This document shows positions 17,316-55,282 of a DNA stretch of 64,000 bases, piece after piece; position 1 is the first letter of the stretch, and each line of letters opens with the position of its first letter. The notes below the pieces were generated by a model. It did not search any database and was not told the origin of the DNA. It worked only from the letters and a program-made list of their open reading frames with translations. The translations under genes were made by a program, and so were the position numbers. The stretch comes from Tubulanus polymorphus (taxonomy: Eukaryota > Animalia > Nemertea). The DNA lies in the NCBI RefSeq assembly GCF_964204645.1, contig NC_134034.1, positions 4,996,914 through 5,060,913 of the forward strand, given 5' to 3'.

Positions 17316-18107
17316 AAAAACGATAATCTGTTAATCCAATGTATATAGTATATATAAAATAACAAGGGGGCTAACGACGCTCACAAACAACTCAACTTCA
17401 GTCGCTTACTATTTCATTATTTCTCATCCGTTTTTGATAATCCAGGCATGATATGAAAGCTAATATCTTTCTGCTTCTAACGAAACTAATCCCGTTAATT
17501 TCCAATGAATAGTTCGTGAATTATATGCCTTTGAACGCGAAATTACGGCCGAAATCGCCTGGACCGAAAATGCTGTGATGCCAGTTTTTGCCGATTTCGA
17601 AATTTAAAACGTTGAGTTCGACGCGAAATCCTTCACCGATTTTGATGGTCGAGGGCTTCAAATGCGCAAAACATTCTATATTTTCTTAATATTGCGGTTG
17701 TTTCGTTATTCCATACGATCTTCCAACTTCGAAAACGCAAATTTTTCGATTTTACGTAAATTCACGCACTCGACACGCGATCTCAAGATGGCGACTATCA
17801 TCTCCCACAATGCTTATCGCAATGCCGAACCGAAATGAATTTTATTTCCAATTTATTTTCTGTGTATATTTACGTGAAGTTCAGAATGTATTATAAACCT
17901 GATCGTGTTTATTCTAGCTTAAATAAGATAAAACATTATTTGATTGAATTGTTACGAAATGAAATTCACTGCGGACCTGTTGCTAGTTCAAGTTCAAGGT
18001 CGCCATCTTGAGATCGCGTGTCGAGCAATTTAGGTAATGTTGTAACCATCCACAAAACGGAAGTGATATTAAAAAGAGACAAAATGGCGGCTTCTTGAAT
18101 CGCAGAA

Positions 18108-18240
18108 GGGGTAGGGTTTAGGGTCTAGGGTTTAGAGGGTTAAGGTTTGGGTCAAGAGGGTTAGGGTTAGGGCTACGGGAAGGATTAGGGTTAGGGTTAG
18201 GTTCCGTTACATATTAGGCTATAACATTGTAGGGTTAGGA
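18108..18240 (+). repeat. Degenerate (TTAGGG)n telomere-like tract
   Basis: GGGTTAGGGTTAGGG variants visible inside the foldback element. Confidence 0.8.
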
Positions 18241-21200
18241 TGAGGCTATAAGTAGTTAAAAAGTTACGACTGAATGAAGCAACCGTCGTAGCACTTTGGG
18301 GTAACGTTAGGCTTGCACTCTTGTGCTTGCGTGTTCGAATCCCAATTTTCGTGTATCTTTCTCAGAATTTGCTAAGTCCAGCGCATTCGCGCATGCGCAT
18401 TGGATTGATTTGTGGATGGTTTCAACATTACACAAATTGCGCGTGTCGAGTGTGTGAATTGACGTAAAATCGGAAAATTCGCGTTTTCGAAGTTGGAAGA
18501 TCGTATGGAATAACGAAACAACCGCAATATTTAGAAAATACAGAATTTTTTGCGCATTTGAAGCCCTCAACCATCAAAATCGGTGAAGGATTTCGCGTCG
18601 AACTCAACGTTTTAAATTTTGAAATCGGCAAAAACCGGCGTCATAGCATTTTCGGTCCAGGCGATTTCGGCCGTAATTTCGTGTTCAAAGACATATAATT
18701 CACGAACTATTCATTGGAAATTAACGGGATTAGTTTCGTTAGAAGCAGAAAGATATGAGCTTTCATATCATGCCTGGATTATCAAAATCGGATGAGAAAT
18801 AACGAAATAGTAAGCGACTGAAGTTGAGTGGTTTGTGAGCGTCGTTAGCCCCCTTGTTATTCTATATATACTATATACATTGGATTAACAGATTATCGTT
18901 TTTACATTACCAACAACTTTGATACGAGCCCCTGTGATGCCGATGGGGATATTCAATTCATTCGCGATGATTAATCACCTGTGAATACTGAGGTCTAATT
19001 GTCTTTTTCTGTTGACGTTGTTTCTTGATGCAAAACCAGCTCCAAATAACATTGAGCTGCGTCTCTCCTCCTCTTTAACTCTCTCTACGCCTGTCATTGA
19101 GTATCAGTATTCAAAACTCACACCACCAAACAGCCTAGCCTCAACACAATAATGGAATGATGCTTGTCTGTAGAGTTTCCAGAACCTGTCATGTCAGGTC
19201 TCAAGACCTGTCATGTCAGGTCCCGAAAAAAACCCAAACTCACGACAATATTTGACGAAACGGCGAAATATCTAGGCATGTGCTAGACGAATGGAAGAAC
19301 ATTTTGAGTTGAGTGAATATTCTGACCCGTCGTAAATATCGAAAATGATTTAACAATAACGATAAGAAAAACGTTCTGCACTAATAATTCATTTGAAAGG
19401 TTGATTTATAAGAAAATAAGATTTTATGTGTAAACTATGACTTATTTCTTTATTGAAGGGAAAAAATACGTTTCAGGCATAGATAGATTAATTAATGTAG
19501 AAATAAGAGAACAGTATAAGAGAATATTTTCAAGAGGTGAATCGAGGTCTTGATGATATTTCGTTTCCGCAATAAGACGCTGAAAAATATCTGCTCACTA
19601 TCACAGCATTATGAGCTTTCCGGTTTGCTCGGCTACCCGTACTGGCGGGGTAGAGAGGCCAATGAAAACTCCGGTTTGCTGCACTACCCCTCTTTGCGGG
19701 GATGCGGTATGATGTTTGATCTGACAGTTTCAAGTGGTTAATTGGTGTTTCAAGTGCTTACAACGATGCTTATTACTTCATGTGGTACATGGTGGTTTAA
19801 AAAGATTTCACGCTCACCGCTTGGGCTTCGTAGAAAGACCACTGCCTGTGGCCTTCCCAAATTTTAATTGTCCTGTCCGATTTGGTTTCGTCCAATTGAG
19901 AGACTGCCTTTTCCAGTTAGGGAATTTTTGGATCACATAACTCAGGAAATGACTTACGCCTTTGGGCCCCTTCGTCGGTTCCACATGTTTCATTTGCGCT
20001 ATAGACCACAGGCAATGGTGACACCATGATGGTCAGAAACTGACCAATTGAGATATCCCCGAGTCTGAACACTTGACTTCGAATTTCGGAAATTTTTCAA
20101 GTCATGTTTTTTTTCAAACTACTGAGGAATCGTCATTACAAATTCATAAACTGACCATCACTGACCACCACTGACCATGCAATTCATCCTTCTCGAATGT
20201 GAGAACGATATATCGGTACCGCGTTTGGTGTGAAGCTAGAAAGGATCATAAATTGACCATCACTGACCACCACTGACCAATTTAGACTTATCGAATGTAA
20301 GAACGATATACCGGCACCGCATTTGGTGTGAAACTAGAAAGGATTCGCCATAAAATTCACTCATTAAATGACTCAACGAATAGAAAATGTTTGCGAGAAG
20401 CACCACCTACAAATAAGTTATGATAAGATTAAATCTATGGTAAATCGATGCTTAAAAAACAATTAAATCACAAGATGACTAACTGCCGTCTTTCAACCAA
20501 TCAGCGCGATACCAATTAATTAAATCATTAAACGCATTGGGCTCCTAATATTTGAAATCATTTGTTACAACTGTTCTTAAGACTTAGCCATTTTTGTTTC
20601 AGAAAACCGCCTACTAGACCAGTGGTCACCAAGGCATTAAAAAAGTTTTGAAAATTGGATGGTAACGATTTTTCAAAAAACTGTTTCGATTTCAAGTTTT
20701 TTTTTTACTCTTGTATAGAATTCACTATATGAAAAGTGTTCATAGGAATTGAAATTCGGTGTGATATCAGTCACCTGTTACCCCTTCATTGTCAGTTCTT
20801 TATTGCACTATCATGCGCTCTTTTTAAATCTAAAATAGAAAAAAACATGTGTGTTTCCTTATAAACAAGGTTAAATTCCAAACGCACATGAAATATGGAG
20901 CCTGTATCACACGATATACACATCTAGCATTTTCTCTAACTAGGCCCTTTCCAAATGGCAATTGTTCAGTTTTTTAACGGCCGACATTCAGAGGCACCTA
21001 AAAACCGGTGGTAGCGCATGAGATTTTCAGTGTAGGCTACATCTCACATCGACTCGGCTCGCGGTCGGTTGTTTAACACATCTGGTTGACACTAGTTTCA
21101 CAGTTGACGAATTCAGAAAACTTTTTTCAAATATCATTGATAACATCTTAAACATAGTATTCTTCTCACATTTCGCTGATTCCATAGATACGTTTTTATG

Positions 21201-28100: not shown

Positions 28101-28830
28101 TCGATTTTCGAGGTTAAAAACTTCAGTTTATTTCCAAGAAACACGAACATTTTCCAATGCATTTCTCAACATCGTACGAGACTAACAAGCACGGGCCGAT
28201 CGCACGTGCGATAATTTGAAGGCTTAACGACTGTTCCTCATTTCATTAAATCCTCCAAAAGTTGAAATACGAATGAAGGTCGAAAAAATCAATATTTCAA
28301 AATTTGTAATCATGTTCAAAGATGATTCGTCCCCGGTATGCCGATAAACACGTTGAAACACTTGATACACAAATTCAACAATGCGAAGAAGTTGTTGGAA
28401 ATTGTTTAACCATGAAGATGTAAAATCGTAGAAAAGGTGCCCGGTCTGGCGGATATTTGACGTGGTTTTGTTTGTAGGTTATGTCGATGGCCGCGAACGC
28501 TGACTACAGCGAGGCGGGCAGCTTTAGGTTAGTGCACACGTGTGGATTGTGTTTACAAACAGAATGTCGTTCATGCGCACGCAACAAAATGGCGGAAACT
28601 CTCTTGTGAAAAAAAATCGTTTATTCTCTTGGCGATTTTTTTTCACAAGAGTTTCCACCATTTTGAGCTCAGACCACTATTCCAAAATCTTCTATATCCT
28701 AATGTAAAAACAAGAAATTCGAGAGTTTAGTTCATATATAAGAGCGTAAATTCAGGGAAAATCCTGCTTATGGCTCATAGGCCAGCATCCTAGCTACGTA
28801 TTAAAGTAATTTTCGCCCCACATACCCAAC

Positions 28831-29412
28831 AGTAATAGGGGTAATAGGCTTTCATACCAAAGGTCGAACGGTCGAGCCCATTAAAAAACAAAATATTAAA
28901 AAACTATAATATATTTTCATAACCGCGTGCATTTTATATCAAAACTAAGTATTTATTCTAAGATATCAATAATATAAAAAGCATATTGTATTAAATCAAT
29001 TGGTCGCTCCACTTCGCTACCGCTCCGCTCCGCGACCAATTGATTTAATTACAATACACAAATTCAAATAATCAAATATATTCAAATGATAATAATTATT
29101 CTATTATTCAACTGAAATGCACGCGGTTATGAAAATATATTATAGTTTTTTAATATATGTTATTAATGAACTCGATCATTAAACCTTTGATATGAAAGCC
29201 TATTACCCCTATTACTCTTAAAATATTCATATATATATGAATAACATTTAAATCATTGAACTTCTTAAATCAATTTTAATAAAAAATATAGTATTAAAAT
29301 GGAAGCAAATAAGTACTACTGCCCAACATGTAATATCGATATAGATAAATCTCAAAAAGCAAGACACAATAAAACTATAACACATTTAGAGAATAAATTG
29401 AAACTAGAATAT
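28831..29412. repeat. Left terminal inverted repeat (582 bp); first 386 bp form an imperfect palindrome
   Basis: Reverse complement of 46832-47413 with about three substitutions seen by eye. 28831-28855 pairs with 29192-29216. Confidence 0.95.
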
Positions 29413-29550
29413 TTACAGTTATATTCAGAACAGTTAACAAAGGGAAAGAAATTTATTGAATTATGGAATAATGATCCAAATAATGAACAATACGTTGAGG
29501 AATTTGATATCAAGGAATCGAAACAACTTATCAAAAGCAGCGAGGAATGA
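29299..29550 (+). CDS. Chimeric 83-aa ORF: TIR-duplicated pPolB N-terminal zinc finger fused to an HNH C-terminal remnant
   Basis: The first 38 aa match the pPolB start (one C/Y difference). LQLYSEQLTKGKKFIELWN resembles LQLYLDQLDKAKTFVELWN at the end of 29630-30298. Confidence 0.6.
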   Translation: MEANKYYCPTCNIDIDKSQKARHNKTITHLENKLKLEYLQLYSEQLTKGKKFIELWNNDPNNEQYVEEFDIKESKQLIKSSEE

Positions 29551-29629
29551 AAAAGGATGACGTTGGTCGAAGAAATGGAAGAGGATTCTAAAATTATTAA
29601 CCAATTTAGTAAAAAAATACGTATAATAA

Positions 29630-30298
29630 ATGGAACCAGAACAACCACAAATTATCAATATTACAAATAACACTGGCGTTATAAACATATACTACAAGAA
29701 GTGTTCTAAATGTGAATTAGATAAATTAGCTATAACAGAATTTAGTAAGCGTAAGATTAGCAAAGATGGTTTTCAAAATTGTTGTAAAACTTGTGCTAAA
29801 CTATACACCAAACAATATCGAGAAGATAATATAAAACATTATAATTATTATATGACAAAATATATGAGAGAAAGATATCAAACAGATCTTAATTTTAGAT
29901 TGAAACAATGTTTAAGGACTAGAATAACACAATTATTCAACAAAGAAACACATTCAGAAACACTATCTAATCTATTGGGTTGTTCAGATGAATTTCTCAA
30001 ATCATGGATAATATATCAATTCGACGATAAAATGAATATAGATAATTATGGTGAATACTTTCATATTGATCACGTGTTGCCGATTTCTAAATTTGATATG
30101 AGTGATGATTATAATAAGAAGCTAATCTGGAACTGGAGAAATTTAAGGCCTTTAGAAAAGAAAGAAAATATAATTAAATCCAATAAACTAGATTTACAGT
30201 TATATTTAGATCAACTGGATAAAGCAAAGACATTTGTTGAATTATGGAATAGTATTTCACAGAATCAACCGCATTCTGAGGTTTTGATCAGTGGTTAG
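29630..30298 (+). CDS. HNH-family endonuclease with N-terminal CxxC zinc ribbon (large-DNA-virus type)
   Basis: CSKC...CKTC, LLGCS, FHIDHVLP...NWRNLRPL...EN..KSNK motifs; TAAATG start. Confidence 0.8.
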   Translation: MEPEQPQIINITNNTGVINIYYKKCSKCELDKLAITEFSKRKISKDGFQNCCKTCAKLYTKQYREDNIKHYNYYMTKYMRERYQTDLNFRLKQCLRTRITQLFNKETHSETLSNLLGCSDEFLKSWIIYQFDDKMNIDNYGEYFHIDHVLPISKFDMSDDYNKKLIWNWRNLRPLEKKENIIKSNKLDLQLYLDQLDKAKTFVELWNSISQNQPHSEVLISG

Positions 30299-30646
30299 AA
30301 AGCTGGCAATTCTATTTGAGCTTTGTATGTATATAATACATAGCTTTTGCTTACTACTAAAACATATGTTGCCAAATATATCTTGTTTTCAATTCTAAAG
30401 AATTAATTAACTTCATCACAAAGAACATCTGTGCAGAAATAATTAGTTTTGTCGAACGTGCGCCACATCGGCAGTTAGAAATCAACTTTCACATACATAT
30501 TAGGCATCGGATATTCTCTCTCAAAACACAGTTTACAGTTCTAAATCTAAATGTAAGTACCGTTTTTTGTAGTTATTATGAAGTAGGGAAACCTTTAAAC
30601 ATATTTAAGTACAGTAATTCATTTTCACGATATCTTTTAGATTAAA

Positions 30647-31101
30647 ATGGAACACAAAGATCAACCAGAAATTCTAAGCCAACCAACGGATAAGGAACGA
30701 TTGCTACTGGATAGTGAAACTCAGGAATCAATAGAAATGGAGGATGAAACTCTCGTAATTGACGAACAAACTTCACAAAATTACAAGAACATTTGGACTA
30801 TCATCAAGAAATGGTGAAAATTCTGAGTGATGTAATACATAATAAACAATTACCGCGCGAACTACAATTACCAAAATTACCAGCAACGCGACTCAAATTG
30901 CTGTTGGGACTCAAAGAATCGAAAACTAAGAAAATGAGTGGAGATATCAGTGCCGGTTTTCTTTCAAAACTGAGAAGAGTAGGTAGATTAATAAAATATG
31001 AAAAATTCAAAATATTAGGATTAGCATTTAGTGAAGTAGTCAGATATTTACCAGAAATTGAAGAAATGATTGGAAACAATCCAGTAATTAAAGAATTCTA
31101 G
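30647..31101 (+). pseudogene. Frameshifted hypothetical gene
   Basis: TAAAATG start at 30647 (MEHKDQPEIL...). One apparent frameshift near 30780 would join it to ORF 30793-31101. Confidence 0.5.
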
Positions 31102-31201
31102 ACAAAATTATAAATTATAACACTGAAGGTCTTTGTAATATAGATATCAAAAATGTAATCTCGATTGTATATATCTGTTTTAATATTGTATTGATTACTG
31201 T

Positions 31202-31427
31202 TAACTGTGTATTGCGCAATAACCGGTCCGATTGAACCGCATTTCTATTGTTCTCCATTGTTCTACTATTGATCGTTGTTGACTGAAACAGCTGCTCAAT
31301 ATTGATTGGTTACAGTTCTATATTTGAATGTTGTAGTTTACAGAATAAAAATATAACTGTGTATTGCGCAATAACCGGTCCGATTGAACCGCTTTTCTAT
31401 TGTTCTCCATTGTTCTATTATCGATCG
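31202..31427. promoter_or_regulatory. Duplicated 74-bp putative enhancer containing ATTGCGCAAT
   Basis: Direct repeats at 31202-31275 and 31354-31427 in a non-coding gap; each has the perfect palindrome ATTGCGCAAT followed by AACCGGT. Confidence 0.45.
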
Positions 31428-31836
31428 CTAAAATTTGTATAATAAATATATGTGTTTATGAAATTAGATTTCCACCAGTCGTTTCTTTGAATTTATTTTC
31501 AGTTGAGGATTTGATATCGAGGATCCGAAATGACTTATCTGGACAGTTATAATTACTGCTCCTATAGATAGACAATAGTAGTGAGATAATCTAAATCCTA
31601 ATTTAAATAAAATATAATAAAAATTACATACCTTCAACTATCTATTATTTCTATTATATTTTTAATATTTTCTTTTCAAAAGAGAATACTTTATATTTTG
31701 AATAGATTTGAATAGAAATTCTTTAAATTCAAATAGCTAGTATCAGTAGTCAATACTAGAATTCTTTAGCTTTAACTAGCTAGTATCATTTGAAGAATAC
31801 TTATAACATTATTCTTATTAAATTTCTCTAATATAA

Positions 31837-32442
31837 ATGTCTAAGAAATCGAATAAGAATAATGTTAAAGTTGAAAAAACTTTGGAAGATTTAGGTTTAA
31901 CAGATGATAATGATAATGTGGCAACTAAATGTGATAATAAAATTGATAACAATATTGATTACGAGTACTATTTATATTGTAAGCATCATCTAGAACTATT
32001 AATTGCGAGTGGAAAAACTAAAGAGTTTATTGGTAAAACAATAACTTTTCAAGAATTAGATAATATGAACAAAGAAAAAGTAATCAAATATTTTAAGATT
32101 TATGAAGAGTCAAGATTAGCTAGAATAAATGATTCTATTTCAGATGGTATTGTCAAATGTTATTCTAAGTTATGTAACCAGTTAATACCAATTGATGATG
32201 AAAATAAATTATATAATGATTTGAAAAATGACTACTTAGTTATGACTGAATTACAAAAATGGGTTGGATATGCTTCATTCCAATTAGGATCGGTTATGAC
32301 GTTGATTTCTACTGGTGTCATAACATTTTCGAACATTAAACCTATGGAATATAAATCAGGTAAGAACGAAACAGATGTACTACAACAAAACATCGAAACA
32401 GAAAATGAATCAGAACAAAAATTAACTAAAATAAATGAGTGA
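31837..32442 (+). CDS. Hypothetical protein, 201 aa, with a C-terminal hydrophobic segment
   Basis: Intact ORF with TAAATG start, overlapping the next gene. Confidence 0.75.
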   Translation: MSKKSNKNNVKVEKTLEDLGLTDDNDNVATKCDNKIDNNIDYEYYLYCKHHLELLIASGKTKEFIGKTITFQELDNMNKEKVIKYFKIYEESRLARINDSISDGIVKCYSKLCNQLIPIDDENKLYNDLKNDYLVMTELQKWVGYASFQLGSVMTLISTGVITFSNIKPMEYKSGKNETDVLQQNIETENESEQKLTKINE

Positions 32443-32809
32443 TAGCGTTAAGAAAAAGGCTAGATCCGAGAAACAAATTAAATGGGCAAGAGAATTAGGT
32501 AAAAGATCTTCAGAATTAAAAAAAGCTAAGAAAAAGAAATTAACTGATATAAATGAATCACCTGATGATGCCGTACGACACCCGCACGGTGGTATTGATT
32601 CAAATAATAATCCATCTGATTCTTCTAATGTTGGAAGTAATTATAAATTATATATTACAATTGGATTAGTAACAGTTATTATATTATCCGGTGTAATATA
32701 TAAATCAAAATTCAAATCCAATGATAAAGATGATTCTAATGATAATAAACCCATCATACCAGAAAATAAATCAAATGAAAATAAATCTAAAATATTATTA
32801 ATGGATTAA
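32435..32809 (+). CDS. Small basic single-pass membrane protein, 124 aa
   Basis: Lys/Arg-rich N-terminus; hydrophobic stretch LYITIGLVTVIILSGVIY; TAAATG start. Confidence 0.75.
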   Translation: MSDSVKKKARSEKQIKWARELGKRSSELKKAKKKKLTDINESPDDAVRHPHGGIDSNNNPSDSSNVGSNYKLYITIGLVTVIILSGVIYKSKFKSNDKDDSNDNKPIIPENKSNENKSKILLMD

Positions 32810-32812
32810 AAT

Positions 32813-33901
32813 ATGATGAAAAAAGAACAATATTTAAGAGATTTGTATTATAACCCAGAAAGTGAAGTATCATATTCAAGTGTTTCGGAATTATGGGATA
32901 AAATTAAATCTGATAAAGAAAAAATAAAATATAGTGAATTAAAATCATGGTTACAAAATCAACCCACATATCAAATTCATAAAAAGATGGATAAAAAATA
33001 TTTAACAAGAAAAGTAATGGTTTCATATATCGATCAACAATGGCAAGCTGATTTAATTGACATGAAAAACTTAGAAGAATATAACAAAGGATATTTTTGG
33101 ATACTAAATGTTATAGATATATTCAGTAGATACGCATGGAGTATCCCGATTAAAAATAAAACTGGTATAGAAGTTACAAATGCTTTTAAATCTATATTTA
33201 AAGAAGCTATTCCAGATAAGATACAATTTGATGAAGGTAAAGAATTTTATAACAAACATTTTAAAAAACTATTATCTGATAACGATGTAGAATATTTTTC
33301 AACACACTCAGATAAAAAAGCATCTATTATAGAAAGATTTAATAAAACATTGAAAACTAGAATGTGGAAATATTTCACCGCTAATGAAACATATAAATAT
33401 ATCGATGTGTTAGATGATTTAGTGAAAGGTTATAATAATTCTAAACATAATTCTATAAATATGAAACCTATACAAGCTAGAAAAGAAGAAAATTCAGAAA
33501 TAGTTTGGAATAATTTATATGGAGCGTTTGTTACACACGATTTCGGTGAACCTAAATTTAAAATAGGACAACACGTTAGAATTTCTAAATATCGAAAAAC
33601 ATTTTATAAAGGTTATACCCCTAATTTTACAGAAGAAATATTTAAAATTAAAAAGATAATATTAACTAAACCATTTGTTTATAAATTGTTTGATTTAAAA
33701 GATGAAGAAATATTAGGTTATTTTTATGAACAAGAATTATCATTAGTACCAAATCCAGATGAAATAGAATACAAAATAGAAAAAGTATTGAAAACAAAAA
33801 CTCTTAAAGGAAAAAAGTATTCTTTGGTGAAATATAAAGGATATGATGATAAATTTAATGAATGGATTTTATCTAGTAAAATTAAAAGAATAAATGAATA
33901 A
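32813..33901 (+). CDS. int: Retroviral-like (RVE, DDE) integrase with C-terminal chromodomain
   Basis: WQADLIDM, IDIFSRYAW, QFDEGKEF and IERFNKTLK motifs; the C-terminal YKIEKVLK...LVKYKGY...NEWI is chromodomain-like; intact. Confidence 0.95.
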   Translation: MMKKEQYLRDLYYNPESEVSYSSVSELWDKIKSDKEKIKYSELKSWLQNQPTYQIHKKMDKKYLTRKVMVSYIDQQWQADLIDMKNLEEYNKGYFWILNVIDIFSRYAWSIPIKNKTGIEVTNAFKSIFKEAIPDKIQFDEGKEFYNKHFKKLLSDNDVEYFSTHSDKKASIIERFNKTLKTRMWKYFTANETYKYIDVLDDLVKGYNNSKHNSINMKPIQARKEENSEIVWNNLYGAFVTHDFGEPKFKIGQHVRISKYRKTFYKGYTPNFTEEIFKIKKIILTKPFVYKLFDLKDEEILGYFYEQELSLVPNPDEIEYKIEKVLKTKTLKGKKYSLVKYKGYDDKFNEWILSSKIKRINE

Positions 33902-34508
33902 AGATTTATTTATATTTGAACCGCATAATATGTTAGTTACTGGAGTTACAAATTGTGGTAAAACACATTTCATATTAGACTTGTTAGAAACTATTTATAA
34001 AAATCATTTTGATAATATAATATTATTCTGTCCTACTTATGAAATGAATGAAACGTATAATAGAGATATAGTTTTTAAAGATAAAAAGTTTATTATATTA
34101 AATTCTAAAACAGTGAAAGATAATTTAGATAATTGTATAAAAATTGCATTAGATATTTATAAAGGATCTAATACATTATTTATTATTGATGATTGCGCAA
34201 ATTTACATGATTCTAAAATTAGAGAAAGTGAGTTGTGTTATTTAGCTTTCTCTGGTAGACATTTTGGGATAACAACTTGGGTTTTAAATCAGAAATATAA
34301 TTCAATTGTGAAAGATTTTAGAGAGAATATAAGATTTCTAGTTTTATTCTACAACAAAGATAGAAAATCTATGCAACAATCATTGGAAGAAAATCAAATT
34401 ATACCTACTGAATTACATGATGAATATATGAATAAATTAAAAAATAATAAAGGTTCAAAATTATTACTGAGATTACAATTTCCTTATGAATATAAATTTA
34501 TAAAATAA
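33894..34508 (+). CDS. A32/FtsK-HerA family genome-packaging ATPase
   Basis: Walker A GVTNCGKT, Walker B FIIDD, SGRH and LNQ motifs; intact. Confidence 0.92.
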   Translation: MNKDLFIFEPHNMLVTGVTNCGKTHFILDLLETIYKNHFDNIILFCPTYEMNETYNRDIVFKDKKFIILNSKTVKDNLDNCIKIALDIYKGSNTLFIIDDCANLHDSKIRESELCYLAFSGRHFGITTWVLNQKYNSIVKDFRENIRFLVLFYNKDRKSMQQSLEENQIIPTELHDEYMNKLKNNKGSKLLLRLQFPYEYKFIK

Positions 34509-34524
34509 AATCCTAATTCAAAAT

Positions 34525-35095
34525 ATTATAGAATTCACTGTATATTGATGGATGAGTGGATGAATTGGATGAATTGGATGAATTGGAAGAGTGGATGAAT
34601 GGAAGAGTGTAATAATATATAATTTACATATGTTTTTTATTTTTAAAACAGTAAGAGTTCGATTTGAAGATGTCATATAATAATAAATATATTTTTATAA
34701 AATAATAAAATGACAGATAATAAATGTCATATAATAATAAATATATTTTCATAAAATAATAAATAATAAAATAATAAATAATAAAATGATAAATAATAAA
34801 TATATTTTTTATAAAATAATAAATAATAAAATGATAAATAATAAATATCATATAATAATAAATAATAAATATCATATAATAATAAATAATAAATGTCATA
34901 TAATAATAAATATATATTGTGTTAAATTTAATAAAGAATAAAAATATTATATTTATACTCATACTATTCTTCCAATTTATGTGTTAAAAAGTAAAATATA
35001 TATATTATTATACTCATCCACTCTTTCACTCATCCAATTCATCCAACTCTTCCAATTCATCCATTCATCCATCAATATACAGTGAATTCTATAAT
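34525..35095. repeat. Long inverted repeat enclosing an AT-rich minisatellite at the convergence point of the two gene arms
   Basis: ATTATAGAATTCACTGTATATTGATGGATGA.TGGATGAATTGG (from 34525) is the reverse complement of the sequence ending at 35095; AATAAATAATAAA repeats lie between the arms. Confidence 0.85.
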
Positions 35096-35099
35096 CTTT

Positions 35100-36167
35100 T
35101 TAATTTTCATTTTCATATTTTTCTTTAAGCTTATTGTATTCTAAATATATATCCATTTGCATTTTCTTTGATATAATTCCTGAATGATTCCCGAGTTTAT
35201 AATTCCTGAATGTTTTTCTTGAAAATATTTTTGGAATATAATTTTCGATTTCAGTTTTAGATGGATGTTTATTTAAAAATTCTCTAAAATCATCATATTT
35301 AAGTTCAAATAAGTTCATTGCATAACTTACATTTGGTTTAAAGTTATCTAACTTTTTCAATATGGTAACTATATCATTACTCAAGAAATAATCTATAAAT
35401 GTTTTTCTATACCACCGATAATCTAATATATTCTTATTATTAAATTTTGAATTTATAACTCTTGGATTTTCTATTACATTATCTGTACCAATATGTTTAA
35501 TTGAGTATTTATGATTCAATTGTTTATCATATATTACATATTCTTTACATTTTTCACACCAAGATTTAAATACTTTTATTGCATGGGCTGAATCATATCC
35601 ACTTTTTGTTTTTAATTTATAATGTTTTGCCCAATTAGCCTTTGTTATACATTCATTACAGAAAGCACAATAATTCTGATCCTCTTTACATTTATCTTTA
35701 TATATATTGGCATATGTTTTTACTAATTGTAAAATATGTTCATCTTTTTTGATGTGTAATAAATAATCATTATAATTATCAAAATCTTCTTCACAATACA
35801 TACATCTGATGTTATCTTTTGGTTGAACATTTGATTTTTCTATTTTAGGTTCAATATTATGTTCTATTTTAGGTTCAATATTATCATCATTCGATGTAGA
35901 AGGTATAACATTATCTTCTATTTTAGGTTCAATATTATTTTCTATTTTAGTTTCAATATTATCTTTTATTTTAGGTTCAATATTATCTTCTATTTTTATA
36001 TCAATATAATTATTACGTTCAATTAAATATTCTTTGTATTGATTTAATTCATTTAATAAAAATGTTCCAATATATTCATTTATTCTTTTATAAGGTATTA
36101 CATAATACAAATCATCATTGATTTCTTTATCAGCTTTGATTCTTTCATATACTTTACCTCCTTCCAT
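35100..36167 (-). CDS. Multi-zinc-finger (C2H2/U1-like) protein with IEPKIE.N repeats
   Basis: CMYC..H....H, CAFC..H and CEKC..H...H motifs; tandem 8-aa repeats; intact 355 aa. Confidence 0.75.
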   Translation of the reverse strand: MEGGKVYERIKADKEINDDLYYVIPYKRINEYIGTFLLNELNQYKEYLIERNNYIDIKIEDNIEPKIKDNIETKIENNIEPKIEDNVIPSTSNDDNIEPKIEHNIEPKIEKSNVQPKDNIRCMYCEEDFDNYNDYLLHIKKDEHILQLVKTYANIYKDKCKEDQNYCAFCNECITKANWAKHYKLKTKSGYDSAHAIKVFKSWCEKCKEYVIYDKQLNHKYSIKHIGTDNVIENPRVINSKFNNKNILDYRWYRKTFIDYFLSNDIVTILKKLDNFKPNVSYAMNLFELKYDDFREFLNKHPSKTEIENYIPKIFSRKTFRNYKLGNHSGIISKKMQMDIYLEYNKLKEKYENEN

Positions 36168-36199
36168 TTATTATATATATTTTTATTAAAGTTAAAATT

Positions 36200-37447
36200 T
36201 TAATACATAACACTATCTAATTGTGAATTTATAATATTTAATTGCGCGTCAGATATAATATAAATATGCATTTTAAAATTTTTGATTCCCTTTTTCTTTT
36301 TCATGAATAATTGTATTCCATCTTTTGTATTTTGTAGTTTTTTTCCAGAACCATGTAATGAATTATCTTCAGTTGTTCTAAAATCTAACCATAATGCATA
36401 TTTATTACCGGTATAATAATCAATTTGATTAATGTTACAATTTTCAAATGATTTTACTTTTTCATTCATAAAATGTTTTTTAATTTCTACCCATTGATCT
36501 ATCATTCTCATTCCTTGACAAAATATTTTATTTGCTATTCCTTCGATGGTTATTTCTACTTTTGTTATTTCAGGATTATAATAATTGTCAACATTTATTG
36601 CGCCATTAGTATACGTTCCAATAGTAAAAAATATTAATATACCTTTAATAGATCTTCTAGGAAAGTTAATATTCTCATTTATTATTTCATCATTTGCATT
36701 AATAGTTACAGTTTTAAATTTATCAATATAATCATATAATAATGAAAATCCTTGATTGTATTTAGTTTGAATTATACTTGAAATATTTTCATCAGTTACT
36801 GTATCATATTCTAAACATATATTCGATAATTTATAACTCATATCTTTATTAACGCTAGATATTACAATTTCATTTACAGGAGCAAATGTTATCTCAAATA
36901 TAACATCTTCTTGAATTGCGTATTTATATAAAGGTGCATTATTATTTATCAATTCAAAGTCTAATGGAATTTTATATTTGTTTCCATATATACTTTTTAT
37001 TAATTTATCTACATCATTTGTTAATATTGCGCTATTAGCTTCTGATCTTAATTTATTTTGGTTTTCTGATTGGATGCCTTGAAATATCATATTATTTCTA
37101 TTTTCTTTAGTTAACCATAAATCTTTATAATGCATAAATGAATTATAATCATCTAATGAGAAAACTGTTTCTGGACCAATCTTTATAGTTAACTTTTTAA
37201 TCAAATATCTTCCAACATTATCAACGACATAATTATTATTATTACCGATTACTTTTATATCGGCTGATAAATAAATACTGTTTGGAACATAAAAAGTATT
37301 TTGTGTTAATCTCGGAATTCTAACGTATAAAGTTTCATCGGGATTAATATTTGAAGGGTTATGAGTAATTATATGATGTGATCTTTCTGCTTTAATAGCA
37401 TTAGATATTCTATGATTCTTAGAAGGATTGATATAACTCCCACTCAT
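36200..37447 (-). CDS. Putative double-jelly-roll major capsid protein
   Basis: Intact 415-aa beta-rich soluble protein of MCP size, in a Polinton with ATPase and penton-like genes. Assignment is by size, context and strand pattern, not by a profile search. Confidence 0.7.
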   Translation of the reverse strand: MSGSYINPSKNHRISNAIKAERSHHIITHNPSNINPDETLYVRIPRLTQNTFYVPNSIYLSADIKVIGNNNNYVVDNVGRYLIKKLTIKIGPETVFSLDDYNSFMHYKDLWLTKENRNNMIFQGIQSENQNKLRSEANSAILTNDVDKLIKSIYGNKYKIPLDFELINNNAPLYKYAIQEDVIFEITFAPVNEIVISSVNKDMSYKLSNICLEYDTVTDENISSIIQTKYNQGFSLLYDYIDKFKTVTINANDEIINENINFPRRSIKGILIFFTIGTYTNGAINVDNYYNPEITKVEITIEGIANKIFCQGMRMIDQWVEIKKHFMNEKVKSFENCNINQIDYYTGNKYALWLDFRTTEDNSLHGSGKKLQNTKDGIQLFMKKKKGIKNFKMHIYIISDAQLNIINSQLDSVMY

Positions 37448-37471
37448 TTATTTAACAAAAAAATTAATTAT

Positions 37472-38950
37472 TTATTTTTTGATATTTTTTGATATCATAT
37501 TCACTAACCCAAAAATAATAGCACTTACAACTGTAATTAAAAATAAAATAATATGTTCAGCAGCAAAGTTAATAATGTTTCCTGCAGATTTCAATATAAA
37601 ACCAACAATTGAAGCAATAACTCCTGGTAAAGCTGCAGCAGATTTTTTAGATAGTTCCCATAAATATTTTGCTAATTTCTTTAAACCATCTTTAACTTTA
37701 TCTTGTATAGAATTATTTCCTGGGGGTTTATCTGGTTTATTTGGAGTGGGAGTAGGAGTAGATTTTAAAGCATTTGATATTGCTAAACCAATTGTTGTAA
37801 ATAACATAGTTACAGCTGTTAGAATTGAGAGAATTGTTATTCCTTCTAATTTAAATAATAATCTTATTCTGTCTTTTAATGATATTTCAGAATTTGGTTT
37901 AATCAACAAATCTTTAAAAATAACTTTTAATCTATTTATATTATAATCATATGATTTTAATAATAATTTAATTTCTTCTTTTTGTAATTCTATGTTATAT
38001 TCTAAATCATCTATTTCTTTTTCTAAATATGCATTTCTTTTTTTAAATTCAATTTCTTCAATAACTTTATTATCTCTATCTAATTTTAGTTGTTCTATTT
38101 CTTTATTTTTATCAGTTAATTCTTTTTCTAAAGTTCTAATTTTAAAATCTCTTATACTTTTATCATGCGCAATTTTATCAGATGCAAGTCTTAAACTAAT
38201 AATTTCTTTAATTGCTTTATCAGAAAATATATTTAAATCTTCTAATTCTTGTTTTGTTGCATCAATTAATCCATTCGGTAAAAGTTTTTCAATTGGAATT
38301 TTATTTGATTTAAGTTTACTAGTTTTGGAAGTTATATTCTGTTCAGAACTTGTTTCTGGTTCTAAATTATTATCGATTGTTTCAAATAATTCATTAATTC
38401 TTTGTTTAAATACTCTTTCATTTTTAATAATTTCTTCTTGTGTTACATCTTCTATTTCATTACTATTTCTTATTCTTTTAATTCTAGATAGTAATGAGTC
38501 AGACTTAAGCAAAGTTGATTCTGCTAATATTTTGTTTTGTTTTTTATAAGAGATATCAATATAATAATCATCTTTCAAATGATAATAATATTCACCATCT
38601 AAAGATTTTAATTCTTGTACTAAAAGTCTGGCGCCTCTAGCATTGATATTATATCCAGATTTTTCAAATATAGGTTTGAAATTATAAATATATTCATTAT
38701 ATTCTAAATTTTGTTTTACTAAATCTGGATTTTCATTTTCAGGATTTATTCTCGATCTAGTTCTTCTATCAAATTCATCTGTTGATTGACCTTTAGAACC
38801 ACTATCTGCTAAATTAGAATTATATGCTGATTCATCATCATTATCAATATTAGTTTCATTAAAATCGGGTTGTGGTTTATCATCAATATATCCTTCATTA
38901 TTATTTCCCATGTTTTCCATTTCATAATCTTCTCCACCTTCTACATCCAT
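37472..38950 (-). CDS. Coiled-coil protein with multiple C-terminal hydrophobic/amphipathic helices (putative virion membrane protein)
   Basis: Acidic N-terminus, heptad-rich middle, hydrophobic ITILSILTAVTMLFTTIGLAI, Pro-rich linker, then AALPGVIASIVGFIL and IILFLITVVSAIIFGLV. Confidence 0.8.
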   Translation of the reverse strand: MDVEGGEDYEMENMGNNNEGYIDDKPQPDFNETNIDNDDESAYNSNLADSGSKGQSTDEFDRRTRSRINPENENPDLVKQNLEYNEYIYNFKPIFEKSGYNINARGARLLVQELKSLDGEYYYHLKDDYYIDISYKKQNKILAESTLLKSDSLLSRIKRIRNSNEIEDVTQEEIIKNERVFKQRINELFETIDNNLEPETSSEQNITSKTSKLKSNKIPIEKLLPNGLIDATKQELEDLNIFSDKAIKEIISLRLASDKIAHDKSIRDFKIRTLEKELTDKNKEIEQLKLDRDNKVIEEIEFKKRNAYLEKEIDDLEYNIELQKEEIKLLLKSYDYNINRLKVIFKDLLIKPNSEISLKDRIRLLFKLEGITILSILTAVTMLFTTIGLAISNALKSTPTPTPNKPDKPPGNNSIQDKVKDGLKKLAKYLWELSKKSAAALPGVIASIVGFILKSAGNIINFAAEHIILFLITVVSAIIFGLVNMISKNIKK

Positions 38951-38966
38951 TTACATAATAAAAAAA

Positions 38967-40268: not shown

Positions 40269-40284
40269 TTATATAATTAAAAAA

Positions 40285-40719: not shown

Positions 40720-40738
40720 TTATTTAGAAAAAAAATTA

Positions 40739-41161: not shown

Positions 41162-41186
41162 TTATTTAGCAAAAAAAATTATACAT

Positions 41187-41750: not shown

Positions 41751-41767
41751 TTATATAGTGAAAAAAA

Positions 41768-42526: not shown

Positions 42527-42543
42527 TTATTTTACATATTTTC

Positions 42544-42885: not shown

Positions 42886-42913
42886 TTATTATACAAATTT
42901 TTATTGAAATTGA

Positions 42914-45900
42914 TTAACACGCTAGAATCCTTTTCATAATCTCATTTTCTTTTGTTTCTTCTCTTTTGAATTTTATATATTCATCTAAATTGCAACCATA
43001 GGCGACTGTGTGGATTCCATCATCTAAAATATATCTTTTATCATCAAATGGGTTTAGACTTATCTTCTCTATCTCTTCAATATATATTTCATGATCTTCA
43101 GATCTTAAACATTTCATTTTATGTTTTCTAACTTCTTCATTAAATATACAATTGATGAAATCTTTGAAATGAATATTCTTTTCTACTACACTTTTGGTTA
43201 TTCCTTTTAACTTTTTAGCTTCATGTTCTTTAGTTTTATATGAATACATTTTAGATCTAATACCAATGAACTCTATCATTTCTTCACCGCCTAATTCATC
43301 CTTAAACTTACCAGGAACTTTTTTATTATCATTGCTAAATAGTTCATGATTTTTTGGATAGTTACTAAAATCAAAATGGTGTTTTAATATTTTTAAATCA
43401 TCTTTTATATTATCACTTTTTATCTTTAATATGTACGCATCAGTATCTAGATATAATATTTCTATATTCTTTTCCCCAAAATGGGGTTGCAATACATTAT
43501 AATAGAATTCATACATCAATAGCTTTGAAATTTCTAAAACTGCAGCTCCAACATAAATAGGTTTATTGAACTTCATAGAAGTTCTTTTTAATTTAACTGC
43601 AGCTAAATTTTCATCGAATATTCTATTCCCTATGAATTTCGGATACGATTGCAAATGTCTAATTCTTTTACCATTACTAACTAACTCAATATCATTTCTA
43701 TTTCTAATATTTTCACATGTTTTTCCATAGAACGCATTATTCATCAGTTTAAAGTAATCCTTCTCAAAATCAGTTTTAGCTTCAGTTCTCTGTGTAGTAT
43801 TAAAATCTATATATTTTTCTAACCACTTAGATTGATTAAATGAAATATATCTATGTACTTTTTTTAATATCATTCCTTGATTCAAATAGAATTTTAACAT
43901 TCTATAATGTACTACATAATTATATTTATCTTCTTGAGTTACCATTAACTTTTCAGTATGAATATGATTTTCAGGTTTAATTCTTTTTTGATAATTTGAT
44001 AATTCTTTATGTTTAACAGTTTTATGTTCGGGACAGTAAGCTAGATTTCTAGATTTGAATTTAATATTTTCAGGGTATTCTAAATCTATAACAAAGAACT
44101 AACCAGTATCTGAATCATCTGCAATATCTAGAATTCTTTTCTTCCAATCAAATTTATCAATTTGTAAAACTTCAGTTATTTCAAACATCCCATAAGGTTG
44201 TGGTTCCATCATTGCCCAACCATAAAGATTATTTGCATCTATGTATAATAATTTATATCCAGGATTATCATTTACATTGAAATATCTATCACCCAATACA
44301 CCTGAAACACCTCCTCTTATAGATTTTTCAAATAATAGTAATTGATCTATATTTGTTAACAAATCCATTTTTATATTTGTAAATTTTAATCCACAATCCC
44401 ATGTTAATCCTGGGCTAGAATAACAATGACAAGGATCAATATTAAAATATTTTAGGTTTACATCTCTAAACCTTTCGAATATATCGGTTAATAATAATAC
44501 ATCTGATTTTAAATATAAATCTACTAATTGTCCATGATTTTTAATTTCGAAATGATTCCAAATATTCAATGTTCTATTATAGACTTCATCTTTAACATAT
44601 TCATATTTTAATTCATCATAGAATTGTTCTTTCAATAATTCAGTTATTTTAAAATCATTATGATTTTTATAGAAAGAATATGGAATTGCACCTTTATATC
44701 TCATTAATTTAAAATCATCATAATTTGGGTAATATTCTTTTAATATCTTTAATTCATCATCAACTAATGATTTTGATAAGTTATCTAATGAACTATTTAA
44801 AAATCTATATAAATCTATAAATCTTAGACAACCAAATTGGAATGATATATAATTCTCAGATGTTTTAGCTAACATTCTAAATTTATAAGTTGGTATTTTA
44901 TCTTTTGATTTATTTGAATTTATTATTTCTATTTCATTATTAATTTCTTCTATTTAATGACACAGTTGTTTAATGAATAAATGCGCGTCATACCCCGATA
45001 AATTGTGAAATATAATGGGGACAAAATTTACTTTTTTAGCTTGCAAATTACAATTCTCATGTGCAGCGCCTCTAAATTTACCATTCAAATGATCATGGTC
45101 TCTTACTTTTTTATCTTTATAATTAAATAGTTTTTCACAATAATAACATTTATCTGCAAACGCAAATTCTTCTTTATCTTCTTCTGTCATAATTATTTCT
45201 TTATTTGTATTCAATAATTTACTAAATCTTATTTCATATTCAATTAATAAGTCACAAAAATGATTGATAACATTTTCATTTCTATAATGATAATATTCAC
45301 TTTCAATTAGTTCTGGATAATCAGATTTAATATATAACCCGAAAGCTGCAGCTGATTGATGAATCTTTTTAATAGTATTTGTTTTTGGTGGTTCTTCTGA
45401 ATAATCACTTTCATTAGAATTTAATTTCTTTCTTTTATAATATATATCTTTTCTATCTTTATCTGTTAATTCTTTATTTAATGATTCAAAATCTCCATAT
45501 ATTACAAATGGTACTTTATTTTTGTAATCATATTTTTTGAATTCTAATATTTTATCTTTTTCATTTGGTAAAACTAATTTACAATAATCATGATTATCAC
45601 ATAGTTGTTTATGATTTAATAATGTACTTTCATTACTAAATTTATGTAAACATTTTCTACATAGATATATTTTATTATGGTGATCACTTTCTGTTCTAAA
45701 GAATAAATCTATTTGTTTAATCCACATATAATGATTCTCATAATATAGTATATCTATAACATCATTTGAATCATAATCTTTTGATAGGTATAAAGGTTCT
45801 AATGTATAATGTTTAATATTATTTCCTTTTGTATTTGGTAATTTAATTAAATCAAATACATTTATCTTTAAATTATTATCTCTTTCTATTTTTGGGATGT

Positions 45901-46945
45901 TTTTAATTCTAACAGGATACTTATCTATCTTATAATTATTTTCAAATTGTTTATAATGAGTTAATCTAAAACTATGTGTAATATCTTCTGTTGGATGTAA
46001 ACAACTTATTATAGCCCATATAAAACATTTATTATCAAAATTTTGTATATTTATTACACCATTAGTTTTAAATGGTAATTTAATATAACTTGTTCCATTT
46101 ATACTATCATCTTTATAATATGATAAATTATTTTCATCAATTGGTTTTGATTTAGTTAACTTATTATATTTTGTGTTATAAACATGTAAAGTTATAAATA
46201 TTATCTCATCAAATATTAAACCAGATCCTTCAAAATATTTCTCTTCTATTTTAGTTTTTATTTCATTATAACATTTATCTAATTTATCATCTATATGTTG
46301 TTTAGATATAATATGTTGTGAATGAGAATTTATATTATATATTGGTTTATCTTCAGATTTTATAAACTTTACTTTAACTGATATACTAATTTTAGGATAT
46401 TCAACATCTGTAATTATTTTTATTATTTCTTTCATATTTTCTAAATGTTTTTTATTTTCTTCTAATGTTTTACCTTTATGAAATTTAAACTCAATAGCTG
46501 CTGGACCAATATCACTTTTAAATGCTTCGGTTATCTCTATATCTTTTTTATTATCTAATGAATTAATATAATTTCTTACATCTTCCATGTATGGTCTTTT
46601 ATTGTTTAATTTATTTTTTATTCTTTTAATTGTCTTCTGTTTCTTATCATTATCATTATCAAAATAATCTTCACCTAAAATATCATTATTCTTATTTCTA
46701 ATATGACTTATAGATTTTAAATGTTCTTTATAATATCTTTTATCACTGAATGATTGATTACATGTATCACATTTGTATGTTTCTTTTTCATTCTTTAATT
46801 CTTCTAATTTAGTTTCTAATATATCATCCTTATATTCTAGTTTCAATTTATTCTCTAAATGTGTTATAGTTTTATTGTGTCTTGCTTTTTGAGATTTATC
46901 TATATCGATATTATATGTTGGGCAGTAGTACTTATTTGCTTCCAT
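42914..46945 (-). pseudogene. polB: Protein-primed family B DNA polymerase (1343 codons) with two in-frame nonsense mutations
   Basis: Exonuclease motifs YGDFES, FHNLSGYD, YLKSDV; polymerase motifs YIDANNLYG, KLMNNAFYGK, YLDTD. The three ORF pieces share one frame, split by TAA (44954-44956) and TAG (44099-44101) where element 2 has Lys and Tyr. Confidence 0.96.
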
Positions 46946-47413
46946 TTTAATACTATATTTTTTATTAAAATTGATTTTAGAAGTTCAATGATTTAAATGT
47001 TATTCATATATATATGAATATTTTAAGAGTAATAGAGGTAATAGGCTTTCATATCAAAGGTTTAATGATCGAGTTCATTAATAACATATATTAAAAAACT
47101 ATAATATATTTTCATAACCGCGTGCATTTCAGTTGAATAATAGAATAATTATTATCATTTGAATATATTTGATTATTTGAATTTGTGTATTGTAATTAAA
47201 TCAATTGGTCGCGGAGCGGAGCGGTAGCGAAGTGGAGCGACCAATTGATTTAATACAATATGCTTTTTATATTATTGATATCTTAGAATAAATACTTAGT
47301 TTTGATATAAAATGCACGCGGTTATGAAAATATATTATAGTTTTTTAATATTTTGTTTTTTAATGGGCTCGACCGTTCGACCTTTGGTATGAAAGCCTAT
47401 TACCCCTATTACT
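46832..47413. repeat. Right terminal inverted repeat (582 bp)
   Basis: Reverse complement of 28831-29412; includes the pPolB upstream region and first 38 codons. Confidence 0.95.
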
Positions 47414-55130: not shown

Positions 55131-55282
55131 AGTAATAGGGAATAAGTTGTTTCATACCAAAGGTCGAAGGGTCGAGCTCATAAAAAATAAAAAATAAATT
55201 CTCGCAAACTCGAATTTATTTTTTATTTTTTACTCACTCGCCCCTTCAACCTTTGATATGAAACAACTTATTCCCTATTACT
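55131..55282. repeat. 152-bp imperfect terminal palindrome of element 2
   Basis: AGTAATAGGGAATAAGTTGTTTCATA ... TATGAAACAACTTATTCCCTATTACT. Confidence 0.92.

What the first reader, a model, noticed from the sequence alone, without database searches (positions are those of the whole stretch)
28831..29216. Each terminus is itself a long imperfect hairpin, with a second inward copy of the AGTAATAG end
Seen: the outer 386 bp of each TIR folds on itself (AGTAATAGGGGTAATAGGCTTTCAT...ATGAAAGCCTATTACCCCTATTACT, with further stems and a CGCTCC-rich loop near 29008-29031). Element 2 has a 152-bp version in which both arms changed together (GGTAATAGGC to AATAAGTTG), yet the ATACCAAAGG / CCTTTGATAT mismatch is kept. 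All three visible ends are the same isomer. Established: classical Polintons have plain TIRs for protein priming, whereas imperfect terminal hairpins characterise poxvirus/asfarvirus telomeres, parvoviruses and some linear plasmids. Inference: the hairpin is selected, possibly as a duplex origin on displaced single strands, an excision substrate, or a mimic of a helper-virus telomere.
Basis: partly seen in the sequence, partly recalled or inferred. Interest (0 to 1): 0.85.

Follow-up and report, generated by a model that had tools for sequence, protein, structure and literature searches.

The report
Self-folding ends of a Polinton virus
Each end of this virus-like jumping element (a Polinton/Maverick) is a long fold-back whose two arms change together across copies and relatives and whose mismatches favour one strand, so the element likely caps and restarts copying from its folded 3' end, much as Streptomyces chromosome ends do.

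Summary
Confirmed. Window 28831-47413 is an 18.6-kb Polinton (582-nt TIRs, 6-bp TSD, integrase, ATPase, capsid, pPolB in pieces). The outer 386 nt of each TIR folds onto itself from the very first base (z about -21). A second element has a 152-nt version, with 8 of 8 tip changes mirrored.

Reads from the same species show matching allele shares at mirror positions, a mirrored 9-10-nt insertion, and one dominant isomer, not 50:50 flip/flop. A relative (pPolB 84%) has its own 257-nt hairpin; another (70%) keeps the outer motif but has no hairpin, so the feature is not universal.

New here: the mismatches form G.T or G.A pairs on the strand that ends 3' (26 versus 5), and GNA triloops occur only there. 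The pPolB keeps a terminal-protein-like domain. Best reading (0.5): the folded 3' end of a displaced strand is a local origin and cap for protein priming, as in Streptomyces telomeres. No mechanism was tested.

Precedent: a 2026 preprint reports terminal palindromes, mainly in non-pPolB virophages and PLVs. This scan noted hairpins near other Polinton ends before.

The parts
28825..28830 (.). 6-bp target site duplication, left copy
   Evidence: Same 6 bases at 47414-47419; 812 reads show the empty site
28831..29216 (.). Left terminal hairpin of element 1 (386 nt); the minus strand is the one that ends 3' here
28831..28880 (+). Outer arm: variable but mirrored tip (positions 6-19), then the conserved outer motif (positions about 20-47) shared with L020 and L021
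28990..29050 (-). Innermost stem and apex; two overlapping GCGGAGC GNA-triloop motifs on the minus strand
29167..29216 (-). Inner arm: inward copy of the end, degenerate at the outer-motif positions
28831..29412 (+). Left TIR, 582 nt, 99% complementary to the right TIR; contains the pPolB start codon (29299)
29630..30298 (+). 222-aa ORF with an HNH-like motif (seen by eye; no Pfam hit)
32813..33901 (+). Retroviral-type integrase with chromodomain
   Evidence: Pfam rve E 1.8e-9
33894..34508 (+). A32-type packaging ATPase
   Evidence: Pfam Pox_A32 E 2.3e-12
36200..37447 (-). [quoted passage not shown]
   Evidence: Model pLDDT 85; Foldseek to PBCV-1 capsid E 3.5e-16
42914..46945 (-). Protein-primed DNA polymerase B in three ORFs; the N-terminal ORF has a terminal-protein-like domain, vOTU Cys/His and an endonuclease VII-like insert
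47028..47413 (.). Right terminal hairpin of element 1, same isomer, one unmirrored substitution at 47036
55131..55282 (.). Terminal hairpin of element 2 (152 nt); all 8 scored mismatches are G.T or G.A on the 3'-ending strand

Best explanation
The hairpin is a selected single-stranded DNA structure on the strand that ends 3' at each terminus of this Polinton, and it likely serves as a local duplex origin and protective cap for terminal-protein-primed replication. Shown: the fold includes the last base; the arms co-vary; the mismatches and loops favour the 3'-ending strand; one isomer dominates. Predicted: the pPolB keeps a terminal-protein-like domain with its protease residues. Inferred steps: (1) strand-displacement synthesis (or single-strand excision) frees a whole strand. 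(2) Its 3' end folds at once onto the inner arm and rebuilds a duplex that looks like the genome end, without waiting for the 18-kb panhandle. (3) TP-pPolB primes opposite the outer arm and copies round the loop, which returns the same isomer with no nick. (4) Fold-back repair or template switching copies changes from arm to arm, most completely at the tip. (5) The inner arm carries a degenerate form of the outer motif, which would keep it from acting as an end for the integrase or polymerase while G.T and G.A pairs keep it paired.
For: Tip changes mirrored: 8 of 8 between elements 1 and 2, and 7 of 9 between element 1 and L020. In same-species reads, five mirror-position pairs have matching variant shares (31/37, 56/50, 37/45, 39/44, 67/71%), and a 9-10-nt insertion appears in both arms. 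Mismatches giving G.T or G.A on the 3'-ending versus the 5'-ending strand: element 1 9:3, element 2 8:0, L020 7:2, L017 2:0; total 26:5, or 23:5 after dropping 3 shared sites, binomial p 0.0009. Two of the five exceptions are sites where element 1 carries the minority letter. C-GNA-G triloop motifs: 3 on 3' strands and 0 on 5' strands in three hairpins, against 2 in 17.4 kb of interior on both strands. Distant L092 has a 90-nt contig-end hairpin with a GCA triloop and 5:0 G.A mismatches on the strand ending there. The outer motif is conserved in 4 of 4 outer arms and degenerate in 4 of 4 inner arms. In one search, 2559 reads have loose ends at the outer AGT and none of the six rows shown is at the inner one. 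The pPolB N-terminal model matches Y-family polymerases (best E 0.007, probability about 1), the published signature of the TP domain, and C307/H405 are conserved. Streptomyces precedent for TP priming on a folded 3' overhang with GNA loops and fold-back repair.
Against: L021 keeps the outer motif and an unbroken pPolB frame but has no hairpin (z -0.1 and -1.3), so the hairpin is dispensable there unless the contig is misassembled. L055 starts with AGTAGT and has no terminal hairpin. Read depth over the outer arm (about 3700-4100) is about twice that over the inner arm (about 1350-2100): many ends may lack an inner arm, or divergent inner arms were laid elsewhere. One mirror pair does not match (37 versus 70%). 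Element 2 has no GNA triloop. Palindromes in L003, L089 and L034, none shown to be ends, have no polarity (5:4, 2:1, 1:1). The polarity test was designed after seeing the data, on four related ends. A paired 3'-OH is also a ready primer, which fits the self-priming rival equally well. No free genome end was observed.
Confidence: 0.5

Rival explanations
1. The folded 3' end primes DNA synthesis itself (parvovirus-type rolling hairpin), and the resulting dimer junction is resolved asymmetrically, as at the MVM left end, so one isomer is kept; the integrase, the HNH-like ORF or the endonuclease VII-like insert would make the nick.
For: The last 3' base is paired and the 3' strand is the favoured one. 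In MVM an arm mismatch makes one arm of the dimer bridge active and the other inactive. The Halocafeteria preprint proposes hairpin priming. Nuclease-like domains are present.
Against: The TP-like and vOTU features are retained. The endonuclease VII-like motif is also in L021, which has no hairpin, and in most other pPolBs examined. No Rep/HUH or SF3 helicase was found among the 20 element-1 ORFs scanned. It needs an extra, unobserved resolution step.
Confidence: 0.2
2. The hairpin is an integrase or excision substrate: on single-stranded chromosomal DNA the 3'-strand fold rebuilds a duplex end with host DNA as a 3' flap, which the integrase cuts to release the element.
For: The fold ends exactly at the element boundary in elements 1 and 2, and at the inferred boundary in L020. 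The 5'-strand fold, which would be cut at the wrong place, is the destabilised one. The preprint links palindromes to particular integrases.
Against: It explains only the 3' cut. Long inner stems and GNA loops far from the tip are not needed for it. L021 has no hairpin yet appears integrated, with GC-richer flank before its end.
Confidence: 0.13
3. The palindrome is a neutral by-product: an old fold-back duplication kept in step by template switching between the arms, with only the outer arm under selection.
For: Template switching is known to homogenise arms and invert spacers (search listing of PMC8604942). 22 reads show loop inversion. L021 lacks the hairpin. Loop length and sequence vary freely.
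Against: Strand-symmetric mutation predicts no polarity, but 26:5 is seen, and it includes G.A types that single-strand deamination would not explain (inference). GNA loops lie on one strand only. The fold persists in a relative whose arm and loop sequences differ.
Confidence: 0.08
4. The mismatched hairpin is a packaging signal or a mimic of a helper giant-virus or poxvirus telomere.
For: Vaccinia hairpin mismatches are needed for virion maturation, and there structure, not sequence, matters (abstract). A PLV repeat resembles an entomopoxvirus terminus. The element has an A32 ATPase, and no maturation protease was found.
Against: Poxvirus telomeres are closed and occur as flip and flop (abstract), whereas here one isomer dominates. 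In a packaged duplex genome neither strand would be folded. No helper virus is in evidence.
Confidence: 0.06
5. The structure acts in RNA, as an outward-reading transcript of the end.
For: G.U and G.A pairs also stabilise RNA (established knowledge).
Against: C-GNA-G triloops are a DNA-type stable loop (for Streptomyces; otherwise recalled). The genes next to both ends read inward. No RNA run was examined.
Confidence: 0.03

Closest known systems
Polintons/Mavericks (adintovirus-like, pPolB plus rve integrase)
   Same: About 18.6 kb, long TIRs, 6-bp TSD, AG...CT ends, integrase, A32 ATPase, DJR capsid, and pPolB with TP-like and vOTU features (definitions).
   Different: The outer 150-390 nt of each TIR is itself a fold-back that includes the last base. 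No maturation protease was detected. The nematode Polinton paper has no occurrence of 'palindrom'.
Terminal palindromes of Halocafeteria seosinensis virophages and PLVs (bioRxiv 10.64898/2026.07.28.741278)
   Same: Palindromes inside the TIRs next to the TSD in integrated relatives; hairpin function proposed.
   Different: There they are short (52 nt in the example) and preferentially in non-pPolB elements, and the passages read give no covariation, isomer or strand analysis. Here they are 152-386 nt and imperfect, in a pPolB element.
Streptomyces telomeres (Tpg/Tap end patching; PMC5449611)
   Same: Terminal-protein priming on a folded 3' single strand; GNA triloops with sheared G.A, including GCGGAGC; fold-back repair of the tip.
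   Different: Streptomyces uses several short palindromes, an internal origin and a Tap primase, with no family B polymerase. Here there is one long nested fold-back and a TP-fused pPolB. Analogy, not homology.
Adenovirus/PRD1 panhandle model (PMC11886824)
   Same: A displaced strand rebuilds a duplex origin by pairing repeats.
   Different: There the pairing is end-to-end across the genome and direct evidence is said to be lacking. Here each end can pair locally.
Parvovirus hairpin telomeres (MVM left end; AAV ITR recalled)
   Same: 3'-terminal self-pairing; arm mismatches; at the MVM-type left end a single orientation.
   Different: Those are ssDNA genomes with an NS1/Rep nickase; none was found here. 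AAV-type equal flip/flop is not seen.
Poxvirus/asfarvirus hairpin telomeres (PMC8956199)
   Same: AT-rich imperfect terminal hairpins with retained mismatches.
   Different: Those are covalently closed, occur as flip and flop, are not integrated and have no terminal protein.

Membership tests
Polinton/Maverick | 13-25 kb with 100-1500-bp TIRs | tested here: met
   18,583 bp; TIR 582 nt, 99%
Polinton/Maverick | 5-8-bp (typically 6-bp) TSD | tested here: met
   6-bp repeat on both sides; empty-site reads
Polinton/Maverick | Protein-primed PolB with TP and vOTU domains | tested here: met
   DNA_pol_B_2 hits; predicted Y-family-like domain (weak E, position in the protein inferred); Cys/His conserved; adintovirus PolB best viral match, E 6e-23. 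The gene is in pieces in this copy.
Polinton/Maverick | rve integrase | tested here: met
Polinton/Maverick | Packaging ATPase and DJR major capsid protein | tested here: met
Polinton/Maverick | Maturation protease (present in most, not all) | tested here: not met
   No Pfam protease hit among the 20 element-1 ORFs scanned; a divergent one is not excluded
Polinton/Maverick | Minor capsid protein | not tested
   ORF 41768-42526 is a guess by size only
Flip/flop hairpin telomere (poxvirus, AAV type) | Two isomers in similar amounts | tested here: not met
   3 of 3 window ends are one isomer; reads bound the other at about a quarter at most
Flip/flop hairpin telomere (poxvirus, AAV type) | Covalently closed or single-stranded hairpin end in the free genome | not testable with these tools
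   Only integrated DNA was seen
Parvovirus rolling-hairpin replicon | Rep/NS1 HUH nickase-helicase | tested here: not met
   No such Pfam hit
Streptomyces-type telomere | Folded 3' strand with GNA loops and sheared G.A pairs | tested here: inconclusive
   Sequence signature in element 1, L020 and L092; G.A pairs but no GNA loop in element 2; folding itself not measured
Streptomyces-type telomere | Tpg and Tap proteins, internal origin | tested here: not met
   No such Pfam hits; works-like claim only

The most novel reading that the evidence does not exclude
A lineage of protein-primed Polintons has independently evolved Streptomyces-style telomeres: each displaced strand folds its own 3' end into a G.T/G.A-stabilised, GNA-capped hairpin that is the replication origin and repair template, replacing the genome-spanning panhandle, while a degenerate inner copy of the end keeps the polymerase and integrase on the true terminus.
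Probability: 0.35. Interest if true: 0.85.

Novelty: new variant of a known kind. Interest (0 to 1): 0.68.

Why it matters
How Polintons leave the chromosome and replicate is inferred, not observed. The fate of the displaced strand in protein-primed replication is open even for PRD1 and adenovirus. These ends give a strand-specific, naturally varied substrate on which local fold-back, panhandle and self-priming models make different predictions. They also go against the only printed association found, that terminal palindromes go mainly with non-pPolB elements. The hairpin-less relative L021, if its assembly is right, is a natural control.

Tried and rejected
No whole genome is held, so genomic copies could not be folded one by one; unphased reads were used instead.

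MCP-based scans gave nothing in viral contigs and 2 short contigs in genome contigs. A DNA pattern for the outer motif found 0 viral contigs. The look-up of look-alike stretches in other scanned genomes found 0.

Most of the 96 loci do not reach an element end, so absence of a hairpin in them is no evidence. L018 and L019 stop before the end. L006 and L016 have TIRs at both contig ends that may be truncated; L006 has only a 10-bp stem from position 13 and L016 none.

The endonuclease VII-like insert as a cruciform resolvase was considered and set aside: its motif is in most pPolBs examined, including hairpin-less L021, and a cruciform gives no reason for one-strand polarity.

Contig runs X1-X3 were too fragmented to phase arms. 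The 30 opposite-strand joint reads (5 of 15 joints shown) may be library fold-back artefacts and were not taken as proof of isomers. The literature search for the 'racket' model returned 0 papers; Kapitonov and Jurka 2006 was not read and is known here only through the preprint's legend and recall.

Full report
Observation. Window 28831-29216 folds as single-stranded DNA into one long imperfect hairpin (-105.9 kcal/mol; shuffles -26.8 +/- 3.8; z -20.9). The first 26 bases pair perfectly with the last 26, so the fold includes the terminal base and leaves an inward copy of the end. The same structure lies at 47028-47413, with one unmirrored substitution at 47036, and a 152-nt version lies at 55131-55282. 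All three ends are the same isomer.

Context. 28831-47413 is an 18,583-bp, low-GC element with 582-nt TIRs (99%) and a 6-bp TSD; 812 reads show the empty site. It encodes an rve integrase with a chromodomain, an A32 ATPase and pPolB pieces, and a double-jelly-roll capsid protein. The N-terminal pPolB ORF was folded as it stands (pLDDT 83). It matches adintovirus PolB among viral structures (E 6e-23) and Y-family polymerases in the PDB (best E 0.007), which is the published signature of the Polinton terminal-protein domain (PMC11161782, passages and section 7). The vOTU Cys307 and His405 are conserved in a 40-sequence alignment. This is a Polinton/Maverick that still looks protein-primed; no maturation protease was detected. 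Element 2 is a relative (81-95% DNA identity in aligned blocks) that runs off the window.

Do the arms change together? Elements 1 and 2 differ at 8 of the first 26 positions and all 8 are mirrored; element 1 and L020 differ at 9, of which 7 are mirrored. Raw WGS reads of the same species label (run X5, another study, about 12% of it read) cover the loop about 1,100-1,400-fold, against about 3-fold at an apparently single-copy flank, so there are roughly hundreds of ends. Six mirror-position pairs appear among the 40 variant rows shown (50 not shown). Five have matching shares: 28841/29206 983 of 3218 and 676 of 1841; 28846/29201 1870 of 3342 and 884 of 1781; 28855/29192 1448 of 3928 and 648 of 1435; 28856/29191 1541 of 3939 and 626 of 1430; 28926/29123 933 of 1397 and 685 of 966. 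One does not: 28930/29119, 508 of 1389 and 684 of 981. A 9-10-nt insertion behind 28894-28899 has its mirror behind 29147. Much shorter loops also occur, in a few reads each (section 5c). These data are unphased, so they show matching frequencies, not linkage on one molecule. A mirrored insertion and 8 changes in 9 bases are more easily explained by arm-to-arm copying than by stepwise compensation (inference).

Isomers. In one search, 611 + 1948 reads have loose, highly diverse flanks before 28830/28831. None of the six loose-end rows shown (smallest 474 reads; 180 not shown) lies at the inner end. The inner diagnostic sites 29190 and 29182 are not among the variant rows shown (lowest share about 18%). 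The inner-type letter at 28857 is in 935 of 3982 reads; these could be another subfamily, inner arms laid on the outer arm, or true flop ends. Opposite-strand joints total 30 reads, 22 of them loop inversions. So one isomer dominates, a 50:50 flip/flop is excluded, and a minority up to about a quarter is not. Depth over the outer arm is about twice that over the inner arm, which is unexplained.

Relatives. pPolB scans gave 94 loci and the MCP scan 2. Five are close (pPolB 70-84%), and three of these reach an end. L020 has a complete 257-nt hairpin of its own sequence (z -12 and -15). L017 has an inner arm and inner stem at a truncated contig start. L021 has the homologous outer end and a 1336-aa unbroken pPolB frame but no hairpin. 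Among distant loci, L092 ends in a 90-nt hairpin; that this is an element end is inferred from the contig stopping at the last paired base. L055 starts AGTAGT with no terminal hairpin. The feature is therefore lineage-patchy. Aligning the arms shows that all 4 outer arms, L021 included, share a motif at positions about 20-47, while all 4 inner arms are degenerate there.

Which strand folds? Each well-anchored mismatch was scored by the strand on which it gives G.T or G.A. For the strand ending 3' versus 5': element 1 9:3 (4 neither), element 2 8:0, L020 7:2 (2 neither), L017 2:0 (3 neither). The total is 26:5, or 23:5 without three sites shared by elements 1 and 2 (p 0.0009). L092 gives 5:0 for the strand ending at its contig end. 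L003, L089 and L034, not shown to be ends, give 5:4, 2:1 and 1:1. C-GNA-G triloop motifs occur twice at the apex of element 1 and once at the apex of L020, only on the 3' strand, and not in element 2; the 17.4-kb interior has 2 on both strands. L092 has a GCA triloop. The test is post hoc and the ends are related, but the signal argues that the 3'-terminal single strand is the selected fold, and against symmetric cruciform or neutral models.

Mechanism. The best fit is a folded 3' end that rebuilds a duplex origin locally for TP-primed synthesis on a displaced strand, protects that end and allows fold-back copying between the arms; it returns one isomer without any nick (0.5). Streptomyces telomeres are the working analogue: TP priming on a folded 3' overhang, GNA loops including GCGGAGC, and fold-back repair (PMC5449611, passages). 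The panhandle alternative lacks direct evidence even in PRD1 and adenovirus (PMC11886824, passages). Rivals are self-priming with MVM-like asymmetric resolution (0.2; PMC1185569, passages), integrase or excision substrate (0.13), neutral template switching (0.08; PMC8604942, search listing only), telomere mimic or packaging signal (0.06; PMC8956199, abstract; PMC11296320, passages) and RNA (0.03). Every mechanistic step is inferred; none was assayed.

Novelty. Five searches found one paper on such ends: a 2026 preprint on Halocafeteria virophages and PLVs, with palindromes next to the TSD that are preferentially in non-pPolB elements (passages and section 7; its supplements are closed and may hold more). 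Passages of the nematode Polinton preprint, the adintovirus paper and the cryptomonad paper describe no Polinton end hairpin. Subscription papers and Repbase were not searched. Earlier notes of this scan report hairpins a few bases inside Polinton ends in Giardia and in a polymerase-less Maverick (unchecked). Verdict: a real, selected feature and a new variant of a known kind. The long fold that includes the last base, the single isomer and the 3'-strand polarity in a pPolB element were not found in print.

Noticed in passing
window 34507-35113: A second, 607-nt AT-rich imperfect inverted repeat (115-nt arms of short tandem units, z -12) sits exactly between the stop codons of the two convergent gene blocks of element 1; possibly a transcript-end signal.
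   Followed up: partly
window 29299-29550: The pPolB start codon lies inside the TIR, so the left TIR carries an 83-aa ORF that begins with the pPolB N-terminus and continues into sequence resembling the end of the neighbouring HNH-like ORF (repeat D14).
   Followed up: no
window 28642-28830 and 47414 onward: Element 1 is inserted into another high-copy repeat (read depth up to about 1300).
   Followed up: no
L003:4657-4840 and L089:1-56: Palindromes upstream of pPolB with the opposite polarity (end-like ACT motif first, AGT motif last), between divergent genes in L003; could be end-to-end junctions of circular or concatemeric forms.
   Followed up: partly
L092:3320-3409 and L034:158-250: Hairpins that begin CATCAG, close to the adenovirus-type terminal repeat start (recalled), in distant pPolB elements.
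   Followed up: partly
L039:2723-3236 and L055:250-415: Long nested inverted repeats upstream of pPolB in distant elements, not at a visible end.
   Followed up: no
L017, L020 versus window 42544-42885: In these close relatives a homolog of the 113-aa ORF (by eye) lies between the terminus and pPolB, whereas in the window it follows pPolB: gene order next to the end differs.
   Followed up: no
window 61829-62705: Element 2 has an identical 300-nt direct repeat at 577-nt spacing within one gene.
   Followed up: no
window 48317-49747 and 51641-54239: Host flank between the elements holds a DUF1759 (LTR-retroelement-type) ORF and fragments that look like a non-LTR retroelement by eye.
   Followed up: no
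window 17315-18904: A 465-nt, 96% inverted repeat pair 660 nt apart in host DNA, probably a small DNA transposon.
   Followed up: no
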